From Escherichia coli (lineage in GTDB: Bacteria > Pseudomonadota > Gammaproteobacteria > Enterobacterales > Enterobacteriaceae): a DNA stretch of 64,000 nucleotides. Below the pieces are notes generated by a model that did no database searches, was not told the DNA's origin, and saw only the letters and a program-made list of their open reading frames with translations. The stretch lies in the NCBI RefSeq assembly GCF_022846255.1, contig NZ_AP025682.1; one strand, given 5' to 3'. The position numbers and the translations under genes were made by a program. Positions 50,868-59,235 of the stretch are shown in pieces; within the stretch, counting starts at the first letter, position 1; each line of letters starts with the position of its first letter.

Positions 50868-51140
50868 ATGTCTCATACAATCCGTGATAAACAGAAACTG
50901 AAAGCGCGTGCCAGTAAGATTCAGGGCCAGGTCGTGGCGCTCAAGAAAATGCTCGACGAGCCGCACGAATGCGCTGCAGTTTTACAACAGATTGCTGCTA
51001 TCCGTGGCGCGGTGAACGGTCTGATGCGGGAAGTGATTAAAGGTCATCTGACGGAACACATCGTTCACCAGGGGGATGAGCTAAAACGTGAAGAAGATCT
51101 GGATGTCGTTCTGAAGGTGCTGGATTCATATATCAAATAA
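50868..51140 (+). CDS. rcnR: Ni/Co-responsive repressor RcnR (CsoR/RcnR family, 90 aa)
   Basis: ORF track 50868..51140; [21 protein letters not shown]... Confidence 0.92.
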
Positions 51141-51235
51141 TTTATTAACGCGATTGTAAAACTGCCGTTTTTCCTCGTTTACAACGCGTGCGCTGGACAT
51201 TACCATCCTCCTTTGCGATTTATCATCGCAACCAA

Positions 51236-51362
51236 ACGACTCGGGGTGCCCTTCTGCGTGAAGGCTGAGAAATACCCGTATCACCTGATCTGGATAATGC
51301 CAGCGTAGGGAAGTCACGGACCACCAGGTCATTGCTTCTTCACGTTATGGCAGGAGCAAACT
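51236..51362 (+). ncRNA. TPP (THI-box) riboswitch in the thiM leader
   Basis: Conserved THI-element segments ggggtgccc...ctgagaaatacccgtatcacctgatctggataatgccagcgtaggga immediately upstream of the thiM start, with the SD caggagcaaa in the expression platform. Confidence 0.8.
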
Positions 51363-52151
51363 ATGCAAGTCGACCTGCTGAGTTCAGCGCAATCTGCGCA
51401 CGCGTTACACCTTTTTCACCAACATTCCCCTCTTGTGCACTGTATGACCAACGATGTGGTGCAAACCTTTACTGCCAATACCTTGCTGGCGCTCGGTGCA
51501 TCGCCAGCGATGGTTATCGAAACCGAAGAAGCCAGTCAGTTTGCGGCTATCGCCAGTGCGTTGCTGATTAACGTTGGCACACTGACGCAGCCACGAGCGC
51601 AAGCGATGAGTGCTGCCGTTGAGCAAGCAACACGATCACAAACGCCCTGGACGCTTGATCCGGTTGCGGTTGGTGCGCTCGATTATCGCCGCCGTTTTTG
51701 TGTGGAACTTCTGTCCCATAAGCCAACCGCCATACGTGGTAATGCTTCGGAAATCATGGCATTAGCTGGCGTTGCTAATGGTGGACGGGGAGTGGATACC
51801 ACTGATGCCGCAGCTAACGCGATACCCGCTGCACAAACACTGGCACGGGAAACTGGCGCAATCGTCGTGGTCACTGGCGAGGTGGATTATGTTACCGATG
51901 GACATCGTATCATTGGCATTCACGGTGGCGATCCGTTAATGACCAAAGTGGTAGGAACTGGCTGTGCACTATCGGCGGTTGTCGCTGCCTGTTGTGCGCT
52001 ACCAGGCGATACGCTGGAAAATATCGCATCTGCCTGTCACTGGATGAAACAAGCCGGAGAACGCGCAGTCGCCAGAAGCGAGGGGCCAGGTAGTTTTGTT
52101 CCACATTTCCTTGATGCGCTCTGGCAATTGGCGCAGGAGGTGCAGGCATGA
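51363..52151 (+). CDS. thiM: Hydroxyethylthiazole kinase
   Basis: ORF track 51363..52151; recognised as ThiM (262 aa). Confidence 0.92.
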
Positions 52152-52948
52152 AACGAATTAACGCTCTGACGATTGCCGGTACTGATCCGAGTGGTGGTGC
52201 GGGGATTCAGGCCGATCTTAAAACCTTCTCGGCACTTGGCGCTTATGGTTGCTCAGTGATTACTGCACTAGTGGCGCAAAATACCCGTGGCGTACAGTCG
52301 GTGTATCGCATTGAGCTTGATTTTGTCGCCGCCCAGCTCGATTCGGTGTTCAGCGATGTGCGAATCGACACCACTAAAATCGGTATGTTGGCGGAAACCG
52401 ATATTGTTGAAGCGGTGGCAGAACGGTTGCAACGTTATCAGATCCAAAACGTGGTACTCGACACCGTTATGCTGGCAAAAAGCGGCGACCCGCTGCTTTC
52501 ACCTTCGGCAGTTGCCACGCTACGCAGTCGATTATTGCCACAGGTTTCATTAATAACGCCAAACTTGCCCGAAGCAGCCGCCTTGCTCGACGCGCCACAC
52601 GCGCGCACCGAACAGGAAATGCTGGAACAAGGGCGATCGCTGTTGGCGATGGGCTGTGGCGCAGTGCTAATGAAAGGTGGTCATCTGGATGATGAGCAAA
52701 GCCCGGACTGGCTGTTTACCCGCGAGGGTGAACAACGGTTTACCGCACAGCGCATTATGACCAAAAACACTCACGGCACTGGTTGTACGCTCTCTGCGGC
52801 GTTGGCTGCACTGCGCCCGCGCCATACAAACTGGGCTGACACCGTACAGGAGGCAAAAAGCTGGCTTTCATCGGCGTTAGCCCAGGCCGACACGCTGGAA
52901 GTTGGTCACGGTATTGGTCCGGTTCACCACTTCCACGCCTGGTGGTGA
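52148..52948 (+). CDS. thiD: Hydroxymethylpyrimidine/phosphomethylpyrimidine kinase
   Basis: ORF track 52148..52948; ATGA overlap with thiM; recognised as ThiD (266 aa). Confidence 0.92.
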
Positions 52949-53003
52949 GCACCGTACTATAGCTGCTTTGGTTATTGTCAGCCTTTGGCACTGACATTCA
53001 GGG

Positions 53004-53834
53004 ATGAAACCAATGCAGCTAAGAATCACCAGTCGAAAAAAACTCATCGCTTTATTATGCGCTCTTGGGCTAATATCCATCGTTGCGATTCATCCGCGTC
53101 AGACGGTGAATTTTTTCTATTCGACAGCAGTTCAGATTAAAGACTACATCCACTTCTACGGTTATCGCCCGGTTAAATCTTTCGCTATTCGCATTCCTGC
53201 CAGTTACACCATTCACGGAATAGATGTTTCGCGCTGGCAGGAACGGATCGACTGGCAGCGGGTGGCAAAAATGCGCGATAACGGTATTCGCTTACAATTT
53301 GCCTTTATTAAGGCGACGGAAGGCGAAAAGCTGGTGGACCCCTATTTTTCGCGTAACTGGCAACTAAGCCGCGAAAATGGCCTGCTGCGCGGGGCGTATC
53401 ATTATTTTTCCCCGTCGGTATCCGCTTCAGTTCAGGCGCGATTATTTCTGCAAACGGTGGATTTCTCACAAGGCGATTTCCCTGCGGTACTGGACGTAGA
53501 AGAGCGAGGAAAATTATCGGCAAAAGAATTACGCAAGCGGGTAAGTCAGTGGCTAAAAATGGTCGAAAAACGTACGGGAAAAAAGCCAATTATTTACTCA
53601 GGAGCCGTTTTTTATCACACCAATCTGGCGGGCTATTTCAATGAATATCCGTGGTGGGTGGCTCACTATTATCAACGTCGCCCGGACAATGACGGCATGG
53701 CCTGGCGCTTCTGGCAGCATTCCGACCGTGGGCAGGTCGATGGCATTAATGGTCCGGTGGATTTTAATGTGTTTAATGGCACAGAGGAGGAGTTGAGGGA
53801 TTCGTTGATGGGATTAAAGAAACGCCTTAAATAA
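53004..53834 (+). CDS. yegX: GH25 lysozyme-family glycosyl hydrolase YegX
   Basis: ORF track 53004..53834 (alternative start at 53013, MQLRITSRKK); GH25 motifs (GIDVSRWQERIDW, FAFIKATEG). Confidence 0.85.
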   Translation: MKPMQLRITSRKKLIALLCALGLISIVAIHPRQTVNFFYSTAVQIKDYIHFYGYRPVKSFAIRIPASYTIHGIDVSRWQERIDWQRVAKMRDNGIRLQFAFIKATEGEKLVDPYFSRNWQLSRENGLLRGAYHYFSPSVSASVQARLFLQTVDFSQGDFPAVLDVEERGKLSAKELRKRVSQWLKMVEKRTGKKPIIYSGAVFYHTNLAGYFNEYPWWVAHYYQRRPDNDGMAWRFWQHSDRGQVDGINGPVDFNVFNGTEEELRDSLMGLKKRLK

Positions 53835-53881
53835 GAAGCAGTGATATACTCCTACCAGACTCCCCGGCAGGAAAAAGACAA

Positions 53882-54628
53882 ATGGAACAAGCGCATACCC
53901 AGCTGATTGCCCAACTGAACGAGCGTATTTTAGCGGCGGATAACACGCCGCTTTATATTAAGTTTGCCGAAACGGTAAAAAATGCCGTGCGCAACGGGGT
54001 GCTGGAGCATGGCAATATTTTGCCCGGTGAGCGTGATTTAAGTCAGTTAACCGGCGTTTCGCGCATTACGGTGCGCAAGGCGATGCAGGCGCTGGAAGAA
54101 GAGGGCGTGGTGACGCGTTCGCGTGGTTACGGCACGCAGATCAACAACATCTTCGAATACTCGTTGAAAGAAGCGCGAGGTTTTTCTCAGCAGGTGGTAT
54201 TGCGCGGGAAAAAGCCCGATACGCTATGGGTTAACAAGCGTGTCGTGAAATGTCCCGAAGAAGTCGCGCAGCAGCTGGCGGTCGAAGCAGGAAGTAATGT
54301 CTTTTTGCTTAAGCGTATTCGCTATGTCGATGAAGAGGCGGTATCGATTGAGGAATCGTGGGTTCCGGCGCATTTAATTCATGATGTTGATGCCATCGGA
54401 ATTTCTCTTTATGACTACTTCCGCAGCCAGCACATTTACCCACAACGTACGCGTTCCCGCGTTAGCGCCCGGATGCCGGATGCCGAGTTTCAGTCACATA
54501 TTCAGTTAGATAGCAAAGTACCGGTGCTGGTGATCAAGCAAGTGGCGCTTGACCAACAGCAACGGCCTATTGAGTACAGCATCAGCCACTGTCGCAGCGA
54601 TCTATACGTTTTTGTGTGCGAGGAGTAG
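53882..54628 (+). CDS. yegW: GntR/HutC-family transcriptional regulator YegW
   Basis: ORF track 53882..54628; N-terminal wHTH (ILPGERDLSQLTGVSRITVRKAM) and UTRA-like C-terminus. Confidence 0.88.
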   Translation: MEQAHTQLIAQLNERILAADNTPLYIKFAETVKNAVRNGVLEHGNILPGERDLSQLTGVSRITVRKAMQALEEEGVVTRSRGYGTQINNIFEYSLKEARGFSQQVVLRGKKPDTLWVNKRVVKCPEEVAQQLAVEAGSNVFLLKRIRYVDEEAVSIEESWVPAHLIHDVDAIGISLYDYFRSQHIYPQRTRSRVSARMPDAEFQSHIQLDSKVPVLVIKQVALDQQQRPIEYSISHCRSDLYVFVCEE

Positions 54629-55567
54629 TTCCTCGCGCGTTGGCGCACAATCACCGCCCCGATGCCCGACAACCCACGACGCCACTGCATTGCCCAGTAA
54701 TACGGCATCCGCCAGTGGCAGACCAGAGGCCAGCCCGGCAAGTACGCCGCCGGCATGACTGTCGCCCGCCCCAATGGTGTCTACAACTTGCGTTGGAAAT
54801 GCCGGAATGCAGCCAGAAGCGTCGTTGCTGAAATACCATGCGCCCTCTTTATCGAGACGAACGATCAACGGCGCGGCAAATTTCTCCTGCCATTGCTTGC
54901 CTAGTGTTGTTATCTCTGCGGATAGAGCAAAACGTTCGGCGGCAATCTCAGCCTCCTGACGATTGAGTGATACTAAAGGTCGACAGGCCATGATCCGCGC
55001 CAGTAATGCATCCTGGATATCGCCAATACGTGGGCCAAAATCGATAAACGGCGTCACGTCTTGCAGCTTTTCCAGCCATTCCACTAACAATTCGCCGCAG
55101 GGCGAGGCCAGTTGATAACCGGAAAAATAGAGCAGGCTGCCAGGTGCAACGGTTAATCGCGCCAACCATTGGCGATTCCACTGATTTTCCACACCGCTGA
55201 ATGACATAAAAGTGCGTTCGCCATCAGGCTCAACCAGCGCCAGACACCAGCCGTTATCATCTTCGGCGTTATCGATCAGGCTGATTAAGTCCTCTTTTGC
55301 CATCCGGTTGCGAATAATCTCCGCCCACACCCCCTGACCGAGCGGCAAGGCATTACCCGCTTCGATGCCGAGGCGCTTTAATGCCACGGCAATATTCAGT
55401 GCACAGCCGCCAACGTTAACGCTCTGCTGTTTCAGTTCGATATCGCACCCACGCCAGGGGAGGGCATAAGCGTCGGCGATCACATCAATGACCGCCGCGC
55501 CGACGACCATCACCGGCTGACGCGTGGTTAATTCAGGCAGCAGCGTGTGTAATCGAGCGCTGCTCAT
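54602..55567 (-). CDS. yegV: PfkB-family carbohydrate/nucleoside kinase YegV
   Basis: ORF track 54602..55567; ribokinase-like motifs (DTIGAGDSHAGG). Confidence 0.85.
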   Translation of the reverse strand: MSSARLHTLLPELTTRQPVMVVGAAVIDVIADAYALPWRGCDIELKQQSVNVGGCALNIAVALKRLGIEAGNALPLGQGVWAEIIRNRMAKEDLISLIDNAEDDNGWCLALVEPDGERTFMSFSGVENQWNRQWLARLTVAPGSLLYFSGYQLASPCGELLVEWLEKLQDVTPFIDFGPRIGDIQDALLARIMACRPLVSLNRQEAEIAAERFALSAEITTLGKQWQEKFAAPLIVRLDKEGAWYFSNDASGCIPAFPTQVVDTIGAGDSHAGGVLAGLASGLPLADAVLLGNAVASWVVGHRGGDCAPTREELLLAHKNV

Positions 55568-56568
55568 ACCGCCTCCCGTTGTTGGCGATACTTCGCCAGC
55601 GCTGTGGCATAGCGGTTGAAATCAAGCTGATTTACTGCATCCAGTTCCGCCTTTAACGCAGGATCGATAGCGTTAACGCCATGCAACGCGCCACAAATTG
55701 CCGTCGCCATAGCACCGATGGTGTCTGTGTCGCCGCCAAGGTTAGCGCAAAGGACGGCGCAACGGTTCGGATCGGTTTGTGCCAGTTCAACCAGCGCAAT
55801 GGCACACGGCACGGACTCAATGGTGCTGGTGCCTGCGCCAACGACCTGATAAAGCTGTTCGCTGGCGGATTCGGTGCCGTCGGCATTGCGCACTATTTTC
55901 AGCGCAATCTCCAGACGTGCCGCCAGTGAGGCGCTGAAGGTAGTGATGCGTTTTTGTTGAGCATGTCGCGCAATTGAGGGCAGTGAATCAACAATCGCTG
56001 ACCAGCTTTCTCCGTCAATGGCACGAGAAATCGCCCATGCGATGACTACCGCCCCCGCAACCGCCAGATCGGATTTATGGGTCGGGCTGGAGGCCAGCGC
56101 CACATCATCAATAAAAGAGTCAATATCGCGCGCCGGAAGCAAACAACCTAATGGCGAGACGCGCATCGCTGCGCCGTTGGTCACGCCGTTATTTTCCAGT
56201 TCAGCAACGGGTTTACCGTCGCGAATGGCGTTAAGCGCAATCTTCGAGGTCGGACCTAGTACGTTTTTGTTAAAGGCGTCGAAACGCAGCGCCCAGTCGA
56301 GAATATTACGCCCAATCAGATCCGGATCGATCTTGCCTTCACGTTCCAGTAACGCATCCGCCAGACACAGCGCCATCGAGGTATCGTCGGTGAATTCGGC
56401 GCGGTTAAAATAACAGGCTGCGTTATTCTCCTTTGGCCCAGGCAGAAAACGGTCAATCCAGCCAAAGTGTGCTTTAACGCGGCTGCGTGGCCAAAGCTCG
56501 GAGGGCATCCCCATCGCATCCCCTAACGCCTGCCCATAAAGAGCACCGAGAATACGTTCTGTTTTCAT
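55564..56568 (-). CDS. yegU: ADP-ribosylglycohydrolase-family protein YegU
   Basis: ORF track 55564..56568; overlaps yegV start and yegT stop by 4 bp each. Confidence 0.85.
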   Translation of the reverse strand: MKTERILGALYGQALGDAMGMPSELWPRSRVKAHFGWIDRFLPGPKENNAACYFNRAEFTDDTSMALCLADALLEREGKIDPDLIGRNILDWALRFDAFNKNVLGPTSKIALNAIRDGKPVAELENNGVTNGAAMRVSPLGCLLPARDIDSFIDDVALASSPTHKSDLAVAGAVVIAWAISRAIDGESWSAIVDSLPSIARHAQQKRITTFSASLAARLEIALKIVRNADGTESASEQLYQVVGAGTSTIESVPCAIALVELAQTDPNRCAVLCANLGGDTDTIGAMATAICGALHGVNAIDPALKAELDAVNQLDFNRYATALAKYRQQREAV

Positions 56569-57842
56569 TTAACTTCCCCTTGTGTCAACGCAATATCGCG
56601 ATCATCGACCTTGATAGCCGTAATTTCGTTGTCGGATTCGCGGAAAAAAATCATGAACAGCACGGCGATAATGGCAATCATCACCGCGCCGAAAGTCCAC
56701 ATCCCGGCCCAGTTGAAAGTCAGTCCGTTTACCGGTTCCTGATAAGCGAACATCTTTTCCATCATCACACCGCCAAGACGATAGCCGAGCAAACTGCCGA
56801 AGCCCTGGCAGCAGAGCGTGATCAGCCCCTGCGCAGCGGTACGCATATGCACGGGGGCTTTTTTATCGACATAGATGTAAGCGGTAACGTAGTAAAAATC
56901 GTAACTTACGCCGTGCAGCAAAATGCCGAGGAACAGTAACGCGTAGGTGAAATATTCATCCGCACTACCGTAAATAAAGAAGCCATAGCGGATCGCAGCG
57001 GTGACCAGACCAAGCAACAATACCTTTTTGATACCAAAGCGTTTGGTAAAAAACGGCAATGCCAGCATAAAGAAGATTTCAGAGAACTGGCCGAGCGTCA
57101 TCCAGCCAGTGGCGTTTTTCATGCCAACTTCGGTCAGATAACCGTTGGCAAAGATGTAATAGAACGCCAGTGGCATCGCAAACAGGAATGAACAGAAGAA
57201 AAAGACGAGGAAGTTCTTATCGCGCAGCAGGATCAGCGCATCCAGGCCGAGCATGACTTTAATATCCATTTTGCCGGTGCTTTTTGGTGGCGTGTCGGGC
57301 AGGAAAAACGCAAACACACCAAGCAGAGCAGAACTTCCGGCGGTAATCAGCAGCGGGATGTTAGTCGGAGAGATATCGGCATAACCCAGCATTTGCGGCA
57401 AAAATCCACATGCCAGACCGGAGGCAATCCAGCCGATAGTGCCCATCACACGAATGCGTGGGAAATCACGCTCCACATCCGGCACGTTGGCAAAAGCGAT
57501 ACTGTTAGTCAGCGCAATGGTCGGCATATAGGTTAGCGAGTAGGCCAGCAGTAACGGGAAGAACCCGGCAAAAGTGGTTTGTTGCGCGGCGAAATACATC
57601 AGCACCGCACCAGCGAACATCAATACCGCCAGCACTTTCTGCGCCGAGAAAAAGCGGTCAGTGATGGAGCCAACCAGAATCGGCGACAGGATCGCCGCAA
57701 TGGCGGTACAGGCATACGACCAGCCAATTTCTCCGGCACTAAAACCGCTTTTACTTAACCACAACCACAATGGCACAAACCACGCGCCCCAGATAAACCA
57801 TTCAACAAACATCATGAACGACAGCTTTGCTGTTGTTTTCAT
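56565..57842 (-). CDS. yegT: MFS nucleoside-type transporter YegT
   Basis: ORF track 56565..57842; 12-TM MFS-like protein. Confidence 0.85.
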   Translation of the reverse strand: MKTTAKLSFMMFVEWFIWGAWFVPLWLWLSKSGFSAGEIGWSYACTAIAAILSPILVGSITDRFFSAQKVLAVLMFAGAVLMYFAAQQTTFAGFFPLLLAYSLTYMPTIALTNSIAFANVPDVERDFPRIRVMGTIGWIASGLACGFLPQMLGYADISPTNIPLLITAGSSALLGVFAFFLPDTPPKSTGKMDIKVMLGLDALILLRDKNFLVFFFCSFLFAMPLAFYYIFANGYLTEVGMKNATGWMTLGQFSEIFFMLALPFFTKRFGIKKVLLLGLVTAAIRYGFFIYGSADEYFTYALLFLGILLHGVSYDFYYVTAYIYVDKKAPVHMRTAAQGLITLCCQGFGSLLGYRLGGVMMEKMFAYQEPVNGLTFNWAGMWTFGAVMIAIIAVLFMIFFRESDNEITAIKVDDRDIALTQGEVK

Positions 57843-58098
57843 CTTTTAATTCCTTCATGACAGGTAATGTAAGGTACGCGATGACAATACCACTTAGTAA
57901 TACCTTTTAAATACCTTTGCGGTGAAAACTTGACCGCGGTAACATTTTTTCTGATGAATCGAGCCAACAGAAAACGCTGAAAAAACATCCAAAAGATGGA
58001 AAAACTCGCCCGTAACGACCAGGATTATGATTGCCCGCAAAAGGCGGGCCAGGACAATCCATAGCCGATATCCAATCGGAATTTACGGGAGCATAGTA

Positions 58099-59151
58099 AT
58101 GACAGATATTGCGCAGTTGCTTGGCAAAGACGCCGACAACCTTTTACAGCACCGTTGTATGACTATTCCTTCTGACCAGCTTTATCTCCCCGGACATGAC
58201 TACGTAGACCGCGTGATGATTGACAATAATCGCCCGCCAGCGGTGTTACGTAATATGCAGACGTTGTACAACACCGGGCGTCTGGCTGGCACAGGATATC
58301 TTTCTATTCTGCCGGTTGACCAGGGCGTTGAGCACTCTGCCGGAGCTTCATTTGCCGCTAACCCGCTCTACTTTGACCCGAAAAACATTGTTGAACTGGC
58401 GATCGAAGCGGGCTGTAACTGTGTGGCGTCAACTTACGGCGTGCTGGCATCGGTATCGCGGCGTTACGCGCATCGCATTCCATTCCTCGTCAAACTTAAT
58501 CACAACGAGACGCTAAGTTACCCGAATACCTACGATCAAACGCTGTATGCCAGCGTGGAGCAGGCGTTCAATATGGGCGCGGTGGCGGTTGGTGCGACTA
58601 TCTATTTTGGCTCGGAAGAGTCACGTCGCCAGATTGAAGAAATTTCTGCGGCTTTTGAACGTGCGCACGAGCTGGGCATGGTGACAGTGCTGTGGGCCTA
58701 TTTGCGTAACTCCGCCTTTAAGAAAGATGGCGTTGATTACCATGTTTCCGCCGACCTGACTGGTCAGGCGAACCATCTGGCGGCAACCATAGGTGCAGAT
58801 ATCGTCAAACAAAAAATGGCGGAAAATAACGGCGGCTATAAAGCGATTAATTACGGTTATACCGACGATCGAGTCTACAGCAAACTGACCAGTGAAAACC
58901 CGATTGACCTGGTGCGTTATCAGTTAGCTAACTGCTATATGGGCCGGGCCGGGTTGATAAACTCCGGCGGTGCTGCAGGCGGTGAAACTGACCTCAGCGA
59001 TGCAGTGCGTACTGCGGTTATCAACAAACGCGCAGGCGGAATGGGGCTGATTCTTGGACGTAAGGCGTTCAAGAAATCGATGGCTGACGGCGTGAAACTG
59101 ATTAACGCCGTGCAGGACGTTTATCTCGATAGCAAAATTACTATCGCCTGA
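58099..59151 (+). CDS. fbaB: Class I fructose-bisphosphate aldolase (350 aa)
   Basis: ORF track 58027..59151; start at [16 protein letters not shown] (58099); recognised as FbaB. Confidence 0.92.
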
Positions 59152-59178: not shown

Positions 59179-59214
59179 GTAGGCCGGAAAAGGCGTTAAC
59201 GCCACATCCGGCAT
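59179..59214. repeat. REP element downstream of fbaB
   Basis: gtaggccggaaaaggcgttaacgccacatccggcat matches the REP consensus family. Confidence 0.6.
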
Positions 59215-59235
59215 AAAACCACGCGTACTTTGTTA

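What the first reader, a model, noticed from the sequence alone, without database searches (positions are those of the whole stretch)
53882..57842. yegTUV-yegW: nucleoside transporter / ADP-ribosylglycohydrolase-family / PfkB-kinase operon with a convergent overlapping GntR regulator
Three translationally coupled genes (4-bp overlaps) encode an MFS nucleoside-type transporter, an ADP-ribosylglycohydrolase-fold enzyme and a ribokinase-like kinase, a logical import-deglycosylate-phosphorylate route for an unidentified (possibly modified) nucleoside. The GntR/HutC regulator gene yegW converges on the operon and overlaps the yegV 3' end by about 27 bp. The substrate is, to my knowledge, not established.
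Basis: partly seen in the sequence, partly recalled or inferred. Interest (0 to 1): 0.4.

Follow-up and report, generated by a model that had tools for sequence, protein, structure and literature searches.

The report
yegTUV–yegW (GgaR) orphan riboside operon
This is the known E. coli yegTUV operon and its overlapping repressor gene yegW (renamed GgaR in 2024); its layout and regulation are published, its substrate is still unknown, and the comparisons here point to uptake, phosphorylation and then cleavage of an unusual riboside.

Summary
yegW lies at 53882-54628 (+), and yegV (54602-55567), yegU (55564-56568) and yegT (56565-57842) lie on the minus strand. There are two ATGA overlaps and a 27-bp convergent yegV/yegW overlap. 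The locus is present in 5424 of 5426 complete E. coli genomes and is syntenic across Enterobacterales.

It is not new. Saito et al. 2024 showed one 3.3-kb yegTUV mRNA, repressed about 30-fold by YegW (GgaR), which ADP-glucose releases from DNA in vitro. YegT has a crystal structure (8ZOJ) and bound no canonical nucleoside.

The substrate remains unknown.
- **Operator:** GGTAT-N6-GGTAT occurs only twice in 64 kb, at both published GgaR binding places, and is conserved as far as Vibrio.
- **Module:** the hydrolase-kinase pair is widespread, is fused in both orders, and pairs with NHS, NCS1 or PnuC transporters.
- **Kinase:** YegV lacks the Lys43 and Glu143 that define ribokinases, so it is probably a riboside kinase.
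- **Regulator:** YegW keeps NagR's phosphate-binding residues.

Interest is modest.

The parts
53882..54628 (+). yegW (ggaR): GntR/HutC-type repressor with a UTRA effector domain, 248 aa
   Evidence: ORF. Pfam GntR plus UTRA. Annotated as GgaR in K-12. Closest solved structure is NagR/YvoA (E 6e-23). NagR's phosphate-binding residues are kept as S102, R145, R147, E157 and S175-L176-Y177. Repressor function is from PMC10819704.
54602..55567 (-). yegV: PfkB-family kinase, 321 aa; predicted riboside kinase, not a ribokinase
   Evidence: PF00294 at 190 bits. The ribokinase equivalog TIGR02152 scores 82.6 bits against a cut-off of 299.65. Kept: D28, G54, N58, N202/E205 and D269. Ribokinase N14, K43 and E143 are replaced by V26, C55 and A154.
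55564..56568 (-). yegU: ADP-ribosylglycohydrolase-fold hydrolase, 334 aa, with a complete catalytic and metal site
   Evidence: PF03747 at 225 bits. D17, E24 (aligned to ARH3 E41), T60-D61-D62, H164 and D280-T281-D282-T283 are conserved. Closest solved structure is MJ1187 (1T5J), of unknown function. The DraG and Tri1 equivalog cut-offs are not reached.
56565..57842 (-). yegT: NHS-family (MFS) proton symporter, 425 aa
   Evidence: PF03825 at 611 bits and TIGR00889 at 653 bits. PDB 8ZOJ is this protein. The G311-x3-D315 motif and E255 are present. No ITC binding of the four canonical nucleosides (PMC11979927).
56565..56568 (-). ATGA overlap of the yegT stop and the yegU start
   Evidence: Sequence read. 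Conserved in other genera.
55564..55567 (-). ATGA overlap of the yegU stop and the yegV start
   Evidence: Sequence read. Conserved in other genera.
54602..54628 (.). 27-bp convergent overlap of the 3' ends of yegV and yegW
   Evidence: The same 27-bp overlap occurs in Salmonella, Kluyvera, Klebsiella, Citrobacter, Enterobacter and Pectobacterium. yegV-yegW is listed among overlapping-transcript pairs in PMC12288877.
54619..54637 (.). Palindromic hairpin GCGAGGA-GTAGT-TCCTCGC at the convergence point, with yegW's stop codon in the loop
   Evidence: The 161-nt region folds with z = -4.6 against shuffles. There is no U-tract on either strand, so it is not a canonical intrinsic terminator.
57863..57918 (-). 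Candidate primary YegW operator O1: three direct GGTATT units (57915-57910, 57904-57899, 57891-57886) followed by inverted GTACC (57877-57873) and TTACC (57867-57863)
   Evidence: An invariant block in the four-genus alignment. The GGTAT-N6-GGTAT core is conserved upstream of yegT in every yegT-carrying locus except Gilliamella (L033) and Hafnia (L034), including Vibrio, Budvicia, Tatumella, Rahnella and Pectobacterium. It lies within the 190 bp upstream of yegT that bound GgaR in EMSA (PMC10819704).
57020..57035 (-). Candidate auxiliary operator O2 inside yegT (ORF nt 808-823): GGTATCAAAAAGGTAT
   Evidence: This is the only other GGTAT-N6-GGTAT in the 64-kb window (2 found, 0.05 expected, 0 of 100 shuffles reach 2). 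It falls inside the published weaker-binding probe-5, ORF nt 571-869. It is exact in 12 of the fetched loci, including Vibrio and Budvicia, but it encodes the conserved G-I-K-K-V.
57897..57926 (-). Candidate yegT promoter: TTCACC, 18 nt, TATTAC, overlapping O1
   Evidence: Read from the sequence. K-12 has the better -10 hexamer TATTAT. The consensus scanner did not call it. This is inference only.

Best explanation
yegTUV is a repressor-controlled uptake and breakdown (or salvage) route for a non-canonical riboside whose aglycone is unknown.

Proposed steps:
1. YegT, an NHS proton symporter, imports the riboside.
2. YegV, a PfkB kinase of a distinct 'GGC' subfamily, phosphorylates the 5'-OH of the intact riboside.
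3. YegU, an ADP-ribosylglycohydrolase-fold metal-dependent hydrolase, cleaves the C1' glycosidic bond of the 5'-phosphoriboside. The products are ribose 5-phosphate and the aglycone.
4. YegW (GgaR) represses the operon by binding an array of GGTAT repeats with 11-bp spacing over the yegT promoter region, plus a weaker copy inside yegT. It is released by a phosphorylated ligand, most plausibly the YegV product. ADP-glucose would then be an in vitro mimic.

The convergent 27-bp overlap means that induced yegTUV transcription must run into yegW, which could reinforce induction.

Shown by others: the operon structure, the repression, the two binding regions, the ADP-glucose effect in EMSA, and the lack of binding of canonical nucleosides by YegT.

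Shown here: the operator motif and its conservation, the gene fusions, the interchangeable transporters, and the residue patterns.

Inferred: the substrate class, the order of steps, the natural inducer, and any transcriptional interference.
For: 1. Functional coupling of YegU and YegV. Of 74 loci with a YegU homologue from many phyla, 62 carry a YegV-like PfkB gene beside it. ARH-PfkB proteins exist as fusions in both domain orders: 8 of 10 long representatives scanned carry both domains. P0203 carries the YegV-type LVEPDGERTF motif.

2. The pair sits beside interchangeable small-molecule importers. These are NHS in 28 loci, NCS1 (PF02133) in 17, PnuC-like (PF04973) in 11, and a generic MFS in Vibrio and Loigolactobacillus. 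A GntR/UTRA regulator is adjacent in 51 of 74 loci.

3. YegV is not a ribokinase. E. coli RbsK binds ribose through N14, D16, G42, K43, N46, E143 and D255 (PMC9604405). [quoted passage not shown] YegV has V26, D28, G54, C55, N58, A154 and D269. Across 63 ARH-linked kinases the K43 position is Cys in 55 and never Lys, and the N14 position is always hydrophobic.

4. Three things favour kinase-first. From my own knowledge of the field, PnuC-type facilitators depend on phosphorylation of the imported substrate for accumulation. In distant ARH loci (L075, L082) a PTS EIIBCA with a BglG-type antiterminator replaces the transporter and kinase. Also from my own knowledge, every characterised ARH substrate carries a 5''-phosphate on the ribose whose C1'' bond is cut.

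5. YegU has the full ARH metal and catalytic set.

6. YegT does not bind U, A, C or G, and lacks NupG's uridine-contact residues (PMC11979927).

7. YegW keeps all of NagR's phosphate-coordinating residues (PMC4333415).

8. GGTAT-N6-GGTAT occurs exactly twice in the window, at both published GgaR-binding places. The upstream copy is conserved from E. coli to Vibrio.
Against: - There is no biochemical assay of YegU or YegV anywhere in the searchable literature.
- The only reported YegW effector is ADP-glucose at 10-100 uM. The reported phenotypes concern glycogen, not nucleosides (PMC10819704; PMC6195507).
- The YegV-RbsK alignment is at 22-25% identity. The E143 column is less secure than the motif-anchored K43 column, and it holds Glu in 15 of 63 linked kinases.
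- Known ARH enzymes act on ADP-ribosyl conjugates, not on simple 5-phosphoribosides. They prefer alpha-linked ribose, whereas ordinary nucleosides are beta-linked.
- Edwardsiella, Serratia and Brenneria keep a 63-66% identical YegU with the regulator but without YegT or YegV nearby. The hydrolase can therefore work without the kinase next to it.
- The internal operator copy may be a by-product of the conserved G-I-K-K-V codons.
Confidence: 0.5

Rival explanations
1. YegT imports a modified nucleoside, YegU removes the base to give free ribose, and YegV acts as a ribokinase on that ribose.
For: - Ribokinases are YegV's best-scoring characterised relatives (TIGR02152 and PDB ribokinases).
- Bacteroidetes ribose-utilisation (Rus) loci combine ribokinases and a permease with nucleoside hydrolases or ADP-ribosylglycohydrolases, and are thought to free ribose from ribose-containing nutrients (bioRxiv 10.1101/574913).
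- Some linked kinases (15 of 63) have Glu at the E143 position.
Against: - YegV misses the ribokinase equivalog cut-off by a wide margin (82.6 against 299.65 bits).
- It lacks N14, K43 and E143 (PMC7797080).
- E. coli already has RbsK.
- PnuC- and PTS-linked versions of the module fit phosphorylation of the imported molecule itself.
Confidence: 0.2
2. The ADP-glucose and glycogen model of Saito et al. 2024. YegTUV imports or makes ADP-glucose or a direct glycogen precursor, and GgaR senses ADP-glucose to set glycogen storage.
For: - ADP-glucose at 10-100 uM releases GgaR from the fbaB/yegT spacer in EMSA; glucose and ADP do not.
- The ggaR deletion gives 2-3-fold more glycogen and about 30-fold more yegTUV mRNA.
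- 1% versus 0.25% glucose induces the operon about 3-fold in a GgaR-dependent way.
- The yegV deletion was scored glycogen-deficient on ADP-glucose plates (PMC6195507).
Against: - No reaction of a PfkB kinase or an ARH-fold hydrolase yields ADP-glucose, and the authors give no mechanism.
- ADP-ribose and phosphoribosides were not tested as effectors.
- The in vivo glucose effect (3-fold) is far below full derepression (30-fold).
[quoted passage not shown] The phenotype may therefore be indirect.
- The module is linked to NCS1 or PnuC importers and is fused ARH-PfkB in many phyla. This fits a two-step small-molecule pathway.
- If the Keio deletions follow the standard design, which from my memory keeps only the last 21 nt of the deleted gene, each of the yegV and yegW deletions removes the partner's last codon and stop. 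I did not check this.
Confidence: 0.12
3. YegU is a conventional ADP-ribosyl hydrolase that reverses ADP-ribosylation of a protein, nucleic acid or drug. Its neighbours are functionally unrelated.
For: The Pfam family and the intact catalytic residues match ARH3, DraG and Tri1.
Against: - The DraG and Tri1 equivalog cut-offs are far from met (79 against 337 bits, 69 against 490 bits).
- No ADP-ribosyltransferase is nearby.
- There is tight translational coupling, conserved co-location and fusion with a kinase, plus a dedicated importer and regulator.
- The positions aligned to ARH3 F143 and Y149 are Asn and Val beside a 3-residue deletion. I recall these two residues as stacking the adenine, so this argument is weak.
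Confidence: 0.06

Closest known systems
yegTUV-ggaR (yegW) of E. coli K-12 (b2098-b2101; Saito et al. 2024, PMC10819704)
   Same: It is the same locus. It is 97.6% identical in DNA with the same gene order, overlaps and neighbours fbaB, yegX and thiMD.
   Different: There are only strain-level differences. For example, the -10-like hexamer reads TATTAC here and TATTAT in K-12.
Pseudouridine catabolism genes psuT-psuK-psuG (yeiM-yeiC-yeiN) of E. coli
   Same: The proposed logic is the same: a dedicated nucleoside importer, then a PfkB-family kinase that phosphorylates the intact nucleoside, then a glycosidase that splits the 5'-phosphate into ribose 5-phosphate and the base (from my own knowledge; PsuK/PsuG summary in PMC9247573).
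   Different: The glycosidase here has the ADP-ribosylglycohydrolase fold, not the PsuG (indigoidine synthase A-like) fold. The substrate is unknown, and the order of steps here is inferred, not shown.
Bacteroidetes ribose utilisation systems (Rus; bioRxiv 10.1101/574913)
   Same: These loci combine ribokinase-family kinases and a permease with variable ribosyl-bond-cleaving enzymes, including ADP-ribosylglycohydrolases.
   Different: Rus loci are SusC/D-type polysaccharide utilisation loci with true ribokinases and respond to ribose. yegTUV has a non-ribokinase PfkB, an inner-membrane symporter only, and a HutC-type repressor.
NagR/YvoA and DasR (GntR/HutC repressors of amino-sugar catabolism)
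   Same: NagR is the closest solved relative of YegW (E 6e-23). The domain pair is the same and the phosphate-binding residues are conserved. Both are repressors released by a phosphorylated pathway intermediate.
   Different: NagR binds a palindromic dre site. The YegW sites are built from direct GGTAT repeats with 11-bp spacing plus downstream inverted GTACC. The reported effector is ADP-glucose.
ARH3, DraG and Tri1 ADP-ribosylhydrolases, and MJ1187 (PDB 1T5J)
   Same: They share the fold and the binuclear-metal and catalytic residues. MJ1187 is the nearest solved structure (E 5e-63 to the family profile).
   Different: YegU does not reach any functional equivalog threshold. MJ1187 has no known function. 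The YegU family is defined by its linkage to a kinase and an importer, which the known ADP-ribosylhydrolases lack.
PnuC-NadR (nicotinamide riboside uptake by facilitated diffusion plus kinase trapping)
   Same: In 11 Clostridia-type loci the ARH-PfkB pair sits beside a PnuC-family facilitator. This is the arrangement in which a kinase traps the imported riboside (from my own knowledge).
   Different: The kinase here is PfkB, not the NadR kinase domain. E. coli uses an NHS symporter instead of PnuC. Nicotinamide riboside is only one candidate substrate.

Membership tests
ADP-ribosylglycohydrolase family (PF03747), for YegU | Full-length match to the family profile above Pfam's gathering score | tested here: met
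   225.5 bits against a cut-off of 26.2, covering residues 8-302.
ADP-ribosylglycohydrolase family (PF03747), for YegU | Binuclear metal-site and catalytic residues (ARH3 E41; D77/D78 in the TDD motif; D314/D316/T317 in the GGDTDT motif) | tested here: met
   E24, T60-D61-D62 and D280-T281-D282-T283 are present. D61 and D282 are invariant, and D62, D280 and T283 nearly invariant, in 30 diverse homologues.
ADP-ribosylglycohydrolase family (PF03747), for YegU | Membership of a functionally defined subfamily (DraG TIGR02662; Tri1 NF041672) | tested here: not met
   79.1 against 337 bits and 69.1 against 490 bits.
ADP-ribosylglycohydrolase family (PF03747), for YegU | Hydrolysis of an ADP-ribosyl conjugate | not testable with these tools
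   This needs an enzyme assay. No published assay was found.
Ribokinase (RbsK), for YegV | PfkB fold with the GG dipeptide, NXXE and DTxGAGD motifs and the catalytic Asp | tested here: met
   PF00294 at 189.8 bits. G53-G54, N202-x-x-E205 and D263-T-I-G-A-G-D269 are present.
Ribokinase (RbsK), for YegV | Score above the curated ribokinase equivalog cut-off | tested here: not met
   TIGR02152 82.6 against 299.65 bits; NF008353 59.9 against 341 bits.
Ribokinase (RbsK), for YegV | Lys43 and Glu143, strictly conserved in ribokinases and occupying the space where a nucleobase would sit (PMC7797080) | tested here: not met
   YegV has C55 and A154. Across 63 ARH-linked kinases the K43 column is Cys in 55 and never Lys. 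N14 is replaced by hydrophobic residues in all.
Nucleoside:H+ symporter (NHS) family, for YegT | Full-length match above the curated cut-offs | tested here: met
   PF03825 at 611 bits; TIGR00889 at 653.2 against 446.1 bits. PDB 8ZOJ is YegT.
Nucleoside:H+ symporter (NHS) family, for YegT | GxxxD motif in TM10 with the protonatable Asp, and the partner Glu in TM8 | tested here: met
   G311-V-S-Y-D315 and E255 are present in the window protein. Their role is described in PMC11979927.
Nucleoside:H+ symporter (NHS) family, for YegT | Binding or transport of canonical nucleosides | not testable with these tools
   Literature: ITC with uridine, adenosine, cytidine and guanosine gave no significant binding. 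NupG F143, Y318, F322 and N228 are not conserved (PMC11979927).
GntR/HutC repressors (NagR-like), for YegW | N-terminal GntR winged helix plus a C-terminal UTRA domain | tested here: met
   PF00392 at 58 bits and PF07702 at 126 bits.
GntR/HutC repressors (NagR-like), for YegW | Phosphate-coordinating residues of the effector pocket (NagR T90, R133, R135, S165-I166-Y167) | tested here: met
   YegW has S102, R145, R147 and S175-L176-Y177. In 51 linked regulators the counts are R145 48, R147 42, S175 50, L176 51 and Y177 45.
GntR/HutC repressors (NagR-like), for YegW | Palindromic operator of the dre type | tested here: inconclusive
   The conserved site is mainly direct GGTAT repeats spaced 11 and 14 bp apart, with inverted GTACC downstream. 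In Vibrio the third unit is inverted, giving TGGTATT-N9-AATACCA. There is no footprint at base resolution.
Kinase-then-glycosidase nucleoside catabolism (PsuK/PsuG type) | A PfkB kinase acting on the intact nucleoside, followed by cleavage of the 5'-phosphate to ribose 5-phosphate plus base | not testable with these tools
   This is inferred from the pocket residues, the transporter types and the fusions. No assay exists.
Kinase-then-glycosidase nucleoside catabolism (PsuK/PsuG type) | A glycosidase of the PsuG (indigoidine synthase A-like) family | tested here: not met
   YegU matches only PF03747. It may work like this pathway but is not a member of it.

The most novel reading that the evidence does not exclude
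The YegU/YegV pair defines a widespread, uncharacterised two-enzyme pathway. A 'GGC'-type PfkB kinase phosphorylates an imported non-canonical riboside, possibly alpha-linked or O-linked. An ADP-ribosylglycohydrolase-fold enzyme then acts as a small-molecule 5-phosphoriboside glycosidase. This would be the first metabolic role, outside ADP-ribosylation, for that fold.

Candidate substrates, none of them tested, include:
- nicotinamide or nicotinate riboside, which would make YegU an NMN glycohydrolase;
- alpha-ribazole-type ribosides;
- 2'-O-ribosyladenosine derived from poly(ADP-ribose) or tRNA.

On this reading ADP-glucose is a mimic of the real phosphorylated inducer of GgaR.
Probability: 0.35. 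Interest if true: 0.6.

Novelty: already known. Interest (0 to 1): 0.33.

Why it matters
yegTUV is one of the remaining E. coli operons with no known biochemical function, even though it now has a characterised regulator and a transporter crystal structure. If the ADP-ribosylglycohydrolase-fold enzyme proves to be a small-molecule phosphoriboside glycosidase working with a dedicated riboside kinase, three things follow.
- A fold known for reversing ADP-ribosylation would gain a role in nutrient metabolism.
- Thousands of genes annotated only as 'ADP-ribosylglycohydrolase family protein' and 'carbohydrate kinase' across gut and soil bacteria would get a function.
- The published link between GgaR, ADP-glucose and glycogen would need re-reading.

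The operator motif and the residue predictions reported here make these questions directly testable. As a genome-scan finding, however, the locus is ordinary and already described.

Tried and rejected
- **Promoter and terminator scans.** Scans of 53700-58200 and 50900-54000 gave no more hits than shuffled sequence, and none at the yegT upstream region or the convergence point. The promoter I list is read by eye only.
- **Rfam.** There is no riboswitch or sRNA in the locus. The only hit above threshold is the thiMD TPP riboswitch. There is also none upstream of ARH modules in eight Firmicutes loci that lack a GntR gene. So no ligand clue came from RNA.
- **NCBIfam.** No equivalog threshold was reached for YegU, YegV or YegW.
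- **Literature.** Searches for YegU or YegV biochemistry, ARH+PfkB, ARH+PnuC, and ARH plus nucleoside hydrolase found nothing beyond Saito 2024, Almagro 2018, Xiao 2025 and the Rus preprint. The Park & Gupta review could not be fetched.
- **Ribokinase assignment for YegV.** Rejected, because defining residues are absent.
- **Protein de-ADP-ribosylation role for YegU.** Disfavoured on genomic context.
- **Internal GGTAT site.** I considered that it is only a coding accident. I cannot exclude this, because G-I-K-K-V is conserved and Enterobacter varies at synonymous positions.
- **ORF calling.** My simple ORF caller lost the ARH gene in 9 of the 83 loci considered, most of them high-GC (L036, L051, L064, L069, L071, L077, L079, L081, L087). 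These were left out of the 74-locus counts.
- **Structure prediction and fold search.** Not used. The family has many solved members, and the tool output would not show ligand pockets.

Full report
**1. The observation.**
The ORF list reproduces the finding exactly. yegW is at 53882-54628 on the + strand. yegV (54602-55567), yegU (55564-56568) and yegT (56565-57842) are on the - strand.

Both internal junctions are ATGA start/stop overlaps preceded by purine-rich Shine-Dalgarno-like runs. The TAG stops of yegW and yegV lie 27 bp inside each other's coding regions.

The Pfam and NCBIfam scans confirm the four families:
- YegT is an NHS symporter.
- YegU is an ADP-ribosylglycohydrolase-family protein.
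- YegV is a PfkB kinase.
- YegW is a GntR plus UTRA regulator.

The DNA is present in 5424 of 5426 complete E. coli genomes under these gene names. In K-12 it is b2098-b2101. The window is 97.6% identical to K-12 over this stretch, and the best match is 98.8%.

The 4-bp overlaps and the 27-bp convergent overlap recur in Salmonella, Kluyvera, Klebsiella, Citrobacter, Enterobacter, Pectobacterium and others. The architecture is therefore conserved, not accidental.

**2. What is already published.**
Saito et al. 2024 (PMC10819704) reported the following.
- By ChIP-chip, YegW has a single genomic target, the fbaB/yegT spacer, plus a weaker site 571-869 bp inside yegT.
- yegTUV is one 3.3-kb mRNA, repressed about 30-fold.
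- ADP-glucose at 10-100 uM releases YegW from DNA in EMSA. Glucose and ADP do not.
- A yegW deletion accumulates 2-3-fold more glycogen.

Almagro et al. 2018 listed a yegV deletion as glycogen-deficient on ADP-glucose plates.

Xiao et al. 2025 solved YegT (PDB 8ZOJ). NupG's uridine-contact residues are not conserved in it. ITC with uridine, adenosine, cytidine and guanosine gave no significant binding.

ExcludonFinder lists yegV-yegW as an overlapping-transcript pair.

I found no paper with YegU or YegV biochemistry. The regulatory half of the story is already known.

**3. The operator.**
I aligned the yegT upstream region of the window with Salmonella, Kluyvera and Klebsiella. This shows an invariant block just before the start codon. 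It has three direct GGTATT units followed by GTACC and TTACC in inverted orientation (window 57863-57918, - strand).

The core GGTAT-N6-GGTAT occurs exactly twice in the 64-kb window: at 57900-57915 and at 57020-57035. The expected count is 0.05, and none of 100 shuffles reached 2. The second copy is at nt 808-823 of the yegT ORF, inside the published weak-binding probe. One motif therefore accounts for both experimentally mapped binding places.

The upstream copy is present, in the same position, before yegT in every yegT-carrying locus fetched except Gilliamella and Hafnia. This includes Budvicia, Tatumella, Rahnella, Pectobacterium and Vibrio, and it also precedes the orphan yegU of Brenneria. 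In Vibrio the third unit is inverted, giving a palindrome, TGGTATT-N9-AATACCA.

The internal copy is exact in 12 loci, including Vibrio and Budvicia. But it encodes the conserved peptide G-I-K-K-V and varies in Enterobacter, so coding constraint may explain it.

A weak sigma-70-like promoter (TTCACC, 18 nt, TATTAC; TATTAT in K-12) would overlap the repeats. That fits repression by occlusion. This is my reading only, and the scanner did not call it.

**4. The module outside Enterobacterales.**
A full-library search with YegU found 238 cluster representatives at E <= 1e-30. Among the long ones, 8 of 10 scanned are ARH-PfkB fusions, in both domain orders. The kinase half of P0203 carries YegV-type motifs.

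A scan of one genome per species returned 77 loci. In the 74 loci where my ORF caller kept the ARH gene (71 from this scan, plus Salmonella, Kluyvera and Klebsiella loci):
- a YegV-like PfkB gene is adjacent in 62;
- a GntR/UTRA gene is adjacent in 51.

The transporter is interchangeable:

| Transporter | Loci | Where |
|---|---|---|
| NHS | 28 | Enterobacterales, Vibrio, Gilliamella |
| NCS1 (PF02133) | 17 | Aeromonas, Bacilli, Lactobacillales, Dialister, Sutterellaceae, Succinivibrionaceae, Chloroflexi |
| PnuC-like (PF04973) | 11 | Lachnospiraceae, Clostridium, Dorea, Ruminococcus, Eubacterium, Gemelliphila, Epulopiscium |
| Generic MFS | – | Vibrio (as an extra gene), Loigolactobacillus |

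In two distant loci (35% identity) a PTS EIIBCA with a BglG-type antiterminator sits beside the ARH gene, and no kinase is present. An adenine deaminase (Sutterellaceae) and a PNP/UDP-family phosphorylase appear in a few loci.

No riboswitch precedes the module in eight Firmicutes loci.

Fusion, co-location and non-orthologous replacement of the importer together argue that YegU and YegV catalyse consecutive steps on an imported small molecule.

**5. Which step comes first.**
E. coli ribokinase binds ribose through N14, D16, G42, K43, N46, E143 and D255 (PMC9604405). K43 and E143 are described as strictly conserved in ribokinases and as occupying the space where a nucleobase would sit (PMC7797080).

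YegV aligns V26, D28, G54, C55, N58, A154 and D269 to these seven positions. Across 63 ARH-linked kinases:
- the K43 column is Cys in 55 and never Lys;
- the N14 column is always hydrophobic;
- the E143 column is mixed (A 18, E 15, C 9, S 9);
- D16, G42, N46, the NXXE motif and the catalytic Asp are conserved.

YegV also misses the ribokinase equivalog cut-off (82.6 against 299.65 bits).

So the residues that hold the ribose 2'/3'-hydroxyls and activate the 5'-OH are kept, and those that close the C1' side are gone. That is the pattern of a riboside kinase. Three further points fit phosphorylation of the intact riboside followed by cleavage:
- the PnuC linkage, because facilitators of that family depend on a trapping kinase (my own knowledge);
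- the PTS-linked relatives;
- the fact that all known ARH substrates carry a 5''-phosphate on the ribose that is cleaved (my own knowledge).

The products would be ribose 5-phosphate plus the aglycone. This is the logic of PsuK/PsuG with a different glycosidase fold. The order is inferred, not demonstrated.

**6. YegU and YegW.**
YegU keeps the complete ARH catalytic and metal set: E24 aligned to ARH3 E41, T60-D61-D62, and D280-T281-D282-T283. It reaches no functional equivalog. Its nearest solved relative is MJ1187, of unknown function.

YegW's nearest solved relative is NagR/YvoA. NagR holds the phosphate of GlcNAc-6-P with T90, R133, R135 and S165-I166-Y167 (PMC4333415). YegW has S102, R145, R147 and S175-L176-Y177, and these are conserved in the linked regulators.

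A phosphorylated effector is therefore expected. The YegV product is the natural candidate, and ADP-glucose could be a mimic. ADP-ribose and phosphoribosides were not tested by Saito et al..

**7. The glycogen link.**
The ADP-glucose and glycogen data are real but do not give a mechanism.
- Neither enzyme family makes ADP-glucose.
- The glucose effect in vivo is 3-fold, against 30-fold for full derepression.
- The mutant grows poorly, and glycogen synthesis rises as growth slows.
- If the Keio deletions followed the standard design, which as I recall keeps only the last 21 nt, the yegW deletion would remove yegV's last codon and stop, and the yegV deletion would do the same to yegW (geometry). 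I could not verify this.

**8. The convergent overlap.**
There is no canonical terminator on either strand. A palindromic hairpin at 54619-54637 holds yegW's stop codon in its loop. Because the 3' ends overlap, induced yegTUV transcription must enter yegW. That could lower repressor synthesis and sharpen induction. This is speculation, supported only by the geometry and the ExcludonFinder listing.

**9. Verdict.**

The locus is already known, so interest is modest (0.33). The most novel reading still open is that an ADP-ribosylglycohydrolase-fold enzyme acts as a metabolic phosphoriboside glycosidase in a widespread kinase-coupled pathway. I give this a probability of about 0.35.

Noticed in passing
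window 51232-51328 (+): A TPP riboswitch (71 bits against a gathering score of 54) lies upstream of thiM-thiD. In this window thiM, thiD, yegX and yegW are all on the + strand, separated by short gaps or overlaps. In Salmonella, Kluyvera and Klebsiella yegW directly follows thiD. Read-through from the thiamine operon into yegW may therefore be possible.
   Followed up: partly
window 53004-53834 (+): yegX, a GH25 (lysozyme-like) glycoside hydrolase, sits between thiD and yegW in Escherichia. It is absent from the same position in Salmonella, Kluyvera and Klebsiella. It looks like a lineage-specific insertion that is not part of the yegTUV-W unit.
   Followed up: partly
window 54619-54637: A perfect 7-bp-stem palindrome, GCGAGGA-GTAGT-TCCTCGC, lies exactly where yegV and yegW converge, with yegW's stop codon in the loop. 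There is no U-tract on either strand. Its role (3'-end stabiliser or bidirectional pause site) is unknown.
   Followed up: partly
window 54602-54628: Because of the 27-bp overlap, a standard Keio-style deletion that keeps only the last 21 nt of the deleted gene would remove the partner gene's final codon and stop. The yegW deletion would clip yegV, and the yegV deletion would clip yegW. This could confound the published glycogen phenotypes. The design rule is from my memory, and I did not check the actual junctions.
   Followed up: no
window 57868-57872 and 57897: Escherichia carries a 5-bp insertion (TTACA) between the GTACC and TTACC elements of the operator region, relative to Salmonella, Kluyvera and Klebsiella. 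This window also has TATTAC where K-12 has TATTAT in the -10-like hexamer.
   Followed up: partly
L035, L037 (Edwardsiella), L043 (Serratia), L032 (Brenneria): These genomes keep a 63-66% identical YegU without YegT or YegV nearby. In Edwardsiella and Serratia a GntR/UTRA gene is adjacent. In Brenneria no regulator was detected, but the GGTAT-N6-GGTAT motif lies upstream of the gene. The hydrolase can therefore be retained alone.
   Followed up: partly
L075 5051-8978; L082 196-3940: Distant ARH homologues (35-36% identity) in a Lachnospiraceae and an Erysipelotrichaceae MAG lie directly after a BglG-type antiterminator and a PTS EIIBCA, with no PfkB kinase. This suggests an ARH-fold phospho-glycosidase fed by a PTS.
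   Followed up: partly
L030 10047-11324; L031 9893-11239 (Vibrio): In Vibrio a second MFS_1-family transporter gene is inserted between yegV and yegW, and yegW is co-directional with the operon instead of convergent. The convergent overlap is therefore not universal.
   Followed up: no
window 59182-59219 (+): A weak match to naRNA4 (30 bits, below the gathering score of 59.5) lies between fbaB and gatY. It is probably a REP-type repeat.
   Followed up: no
window 58027-59151 (+): The mechanical ORF for fbaB starts 69 nt (23 codons) upstream of the annotated start, so the real fbaB-yegT spacer is about 250 bp. fbaB is divergent from yegT in all Enterobacteriaceae loci examined, but it was reported not to be regulated by YegW.
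   Followed up: partly
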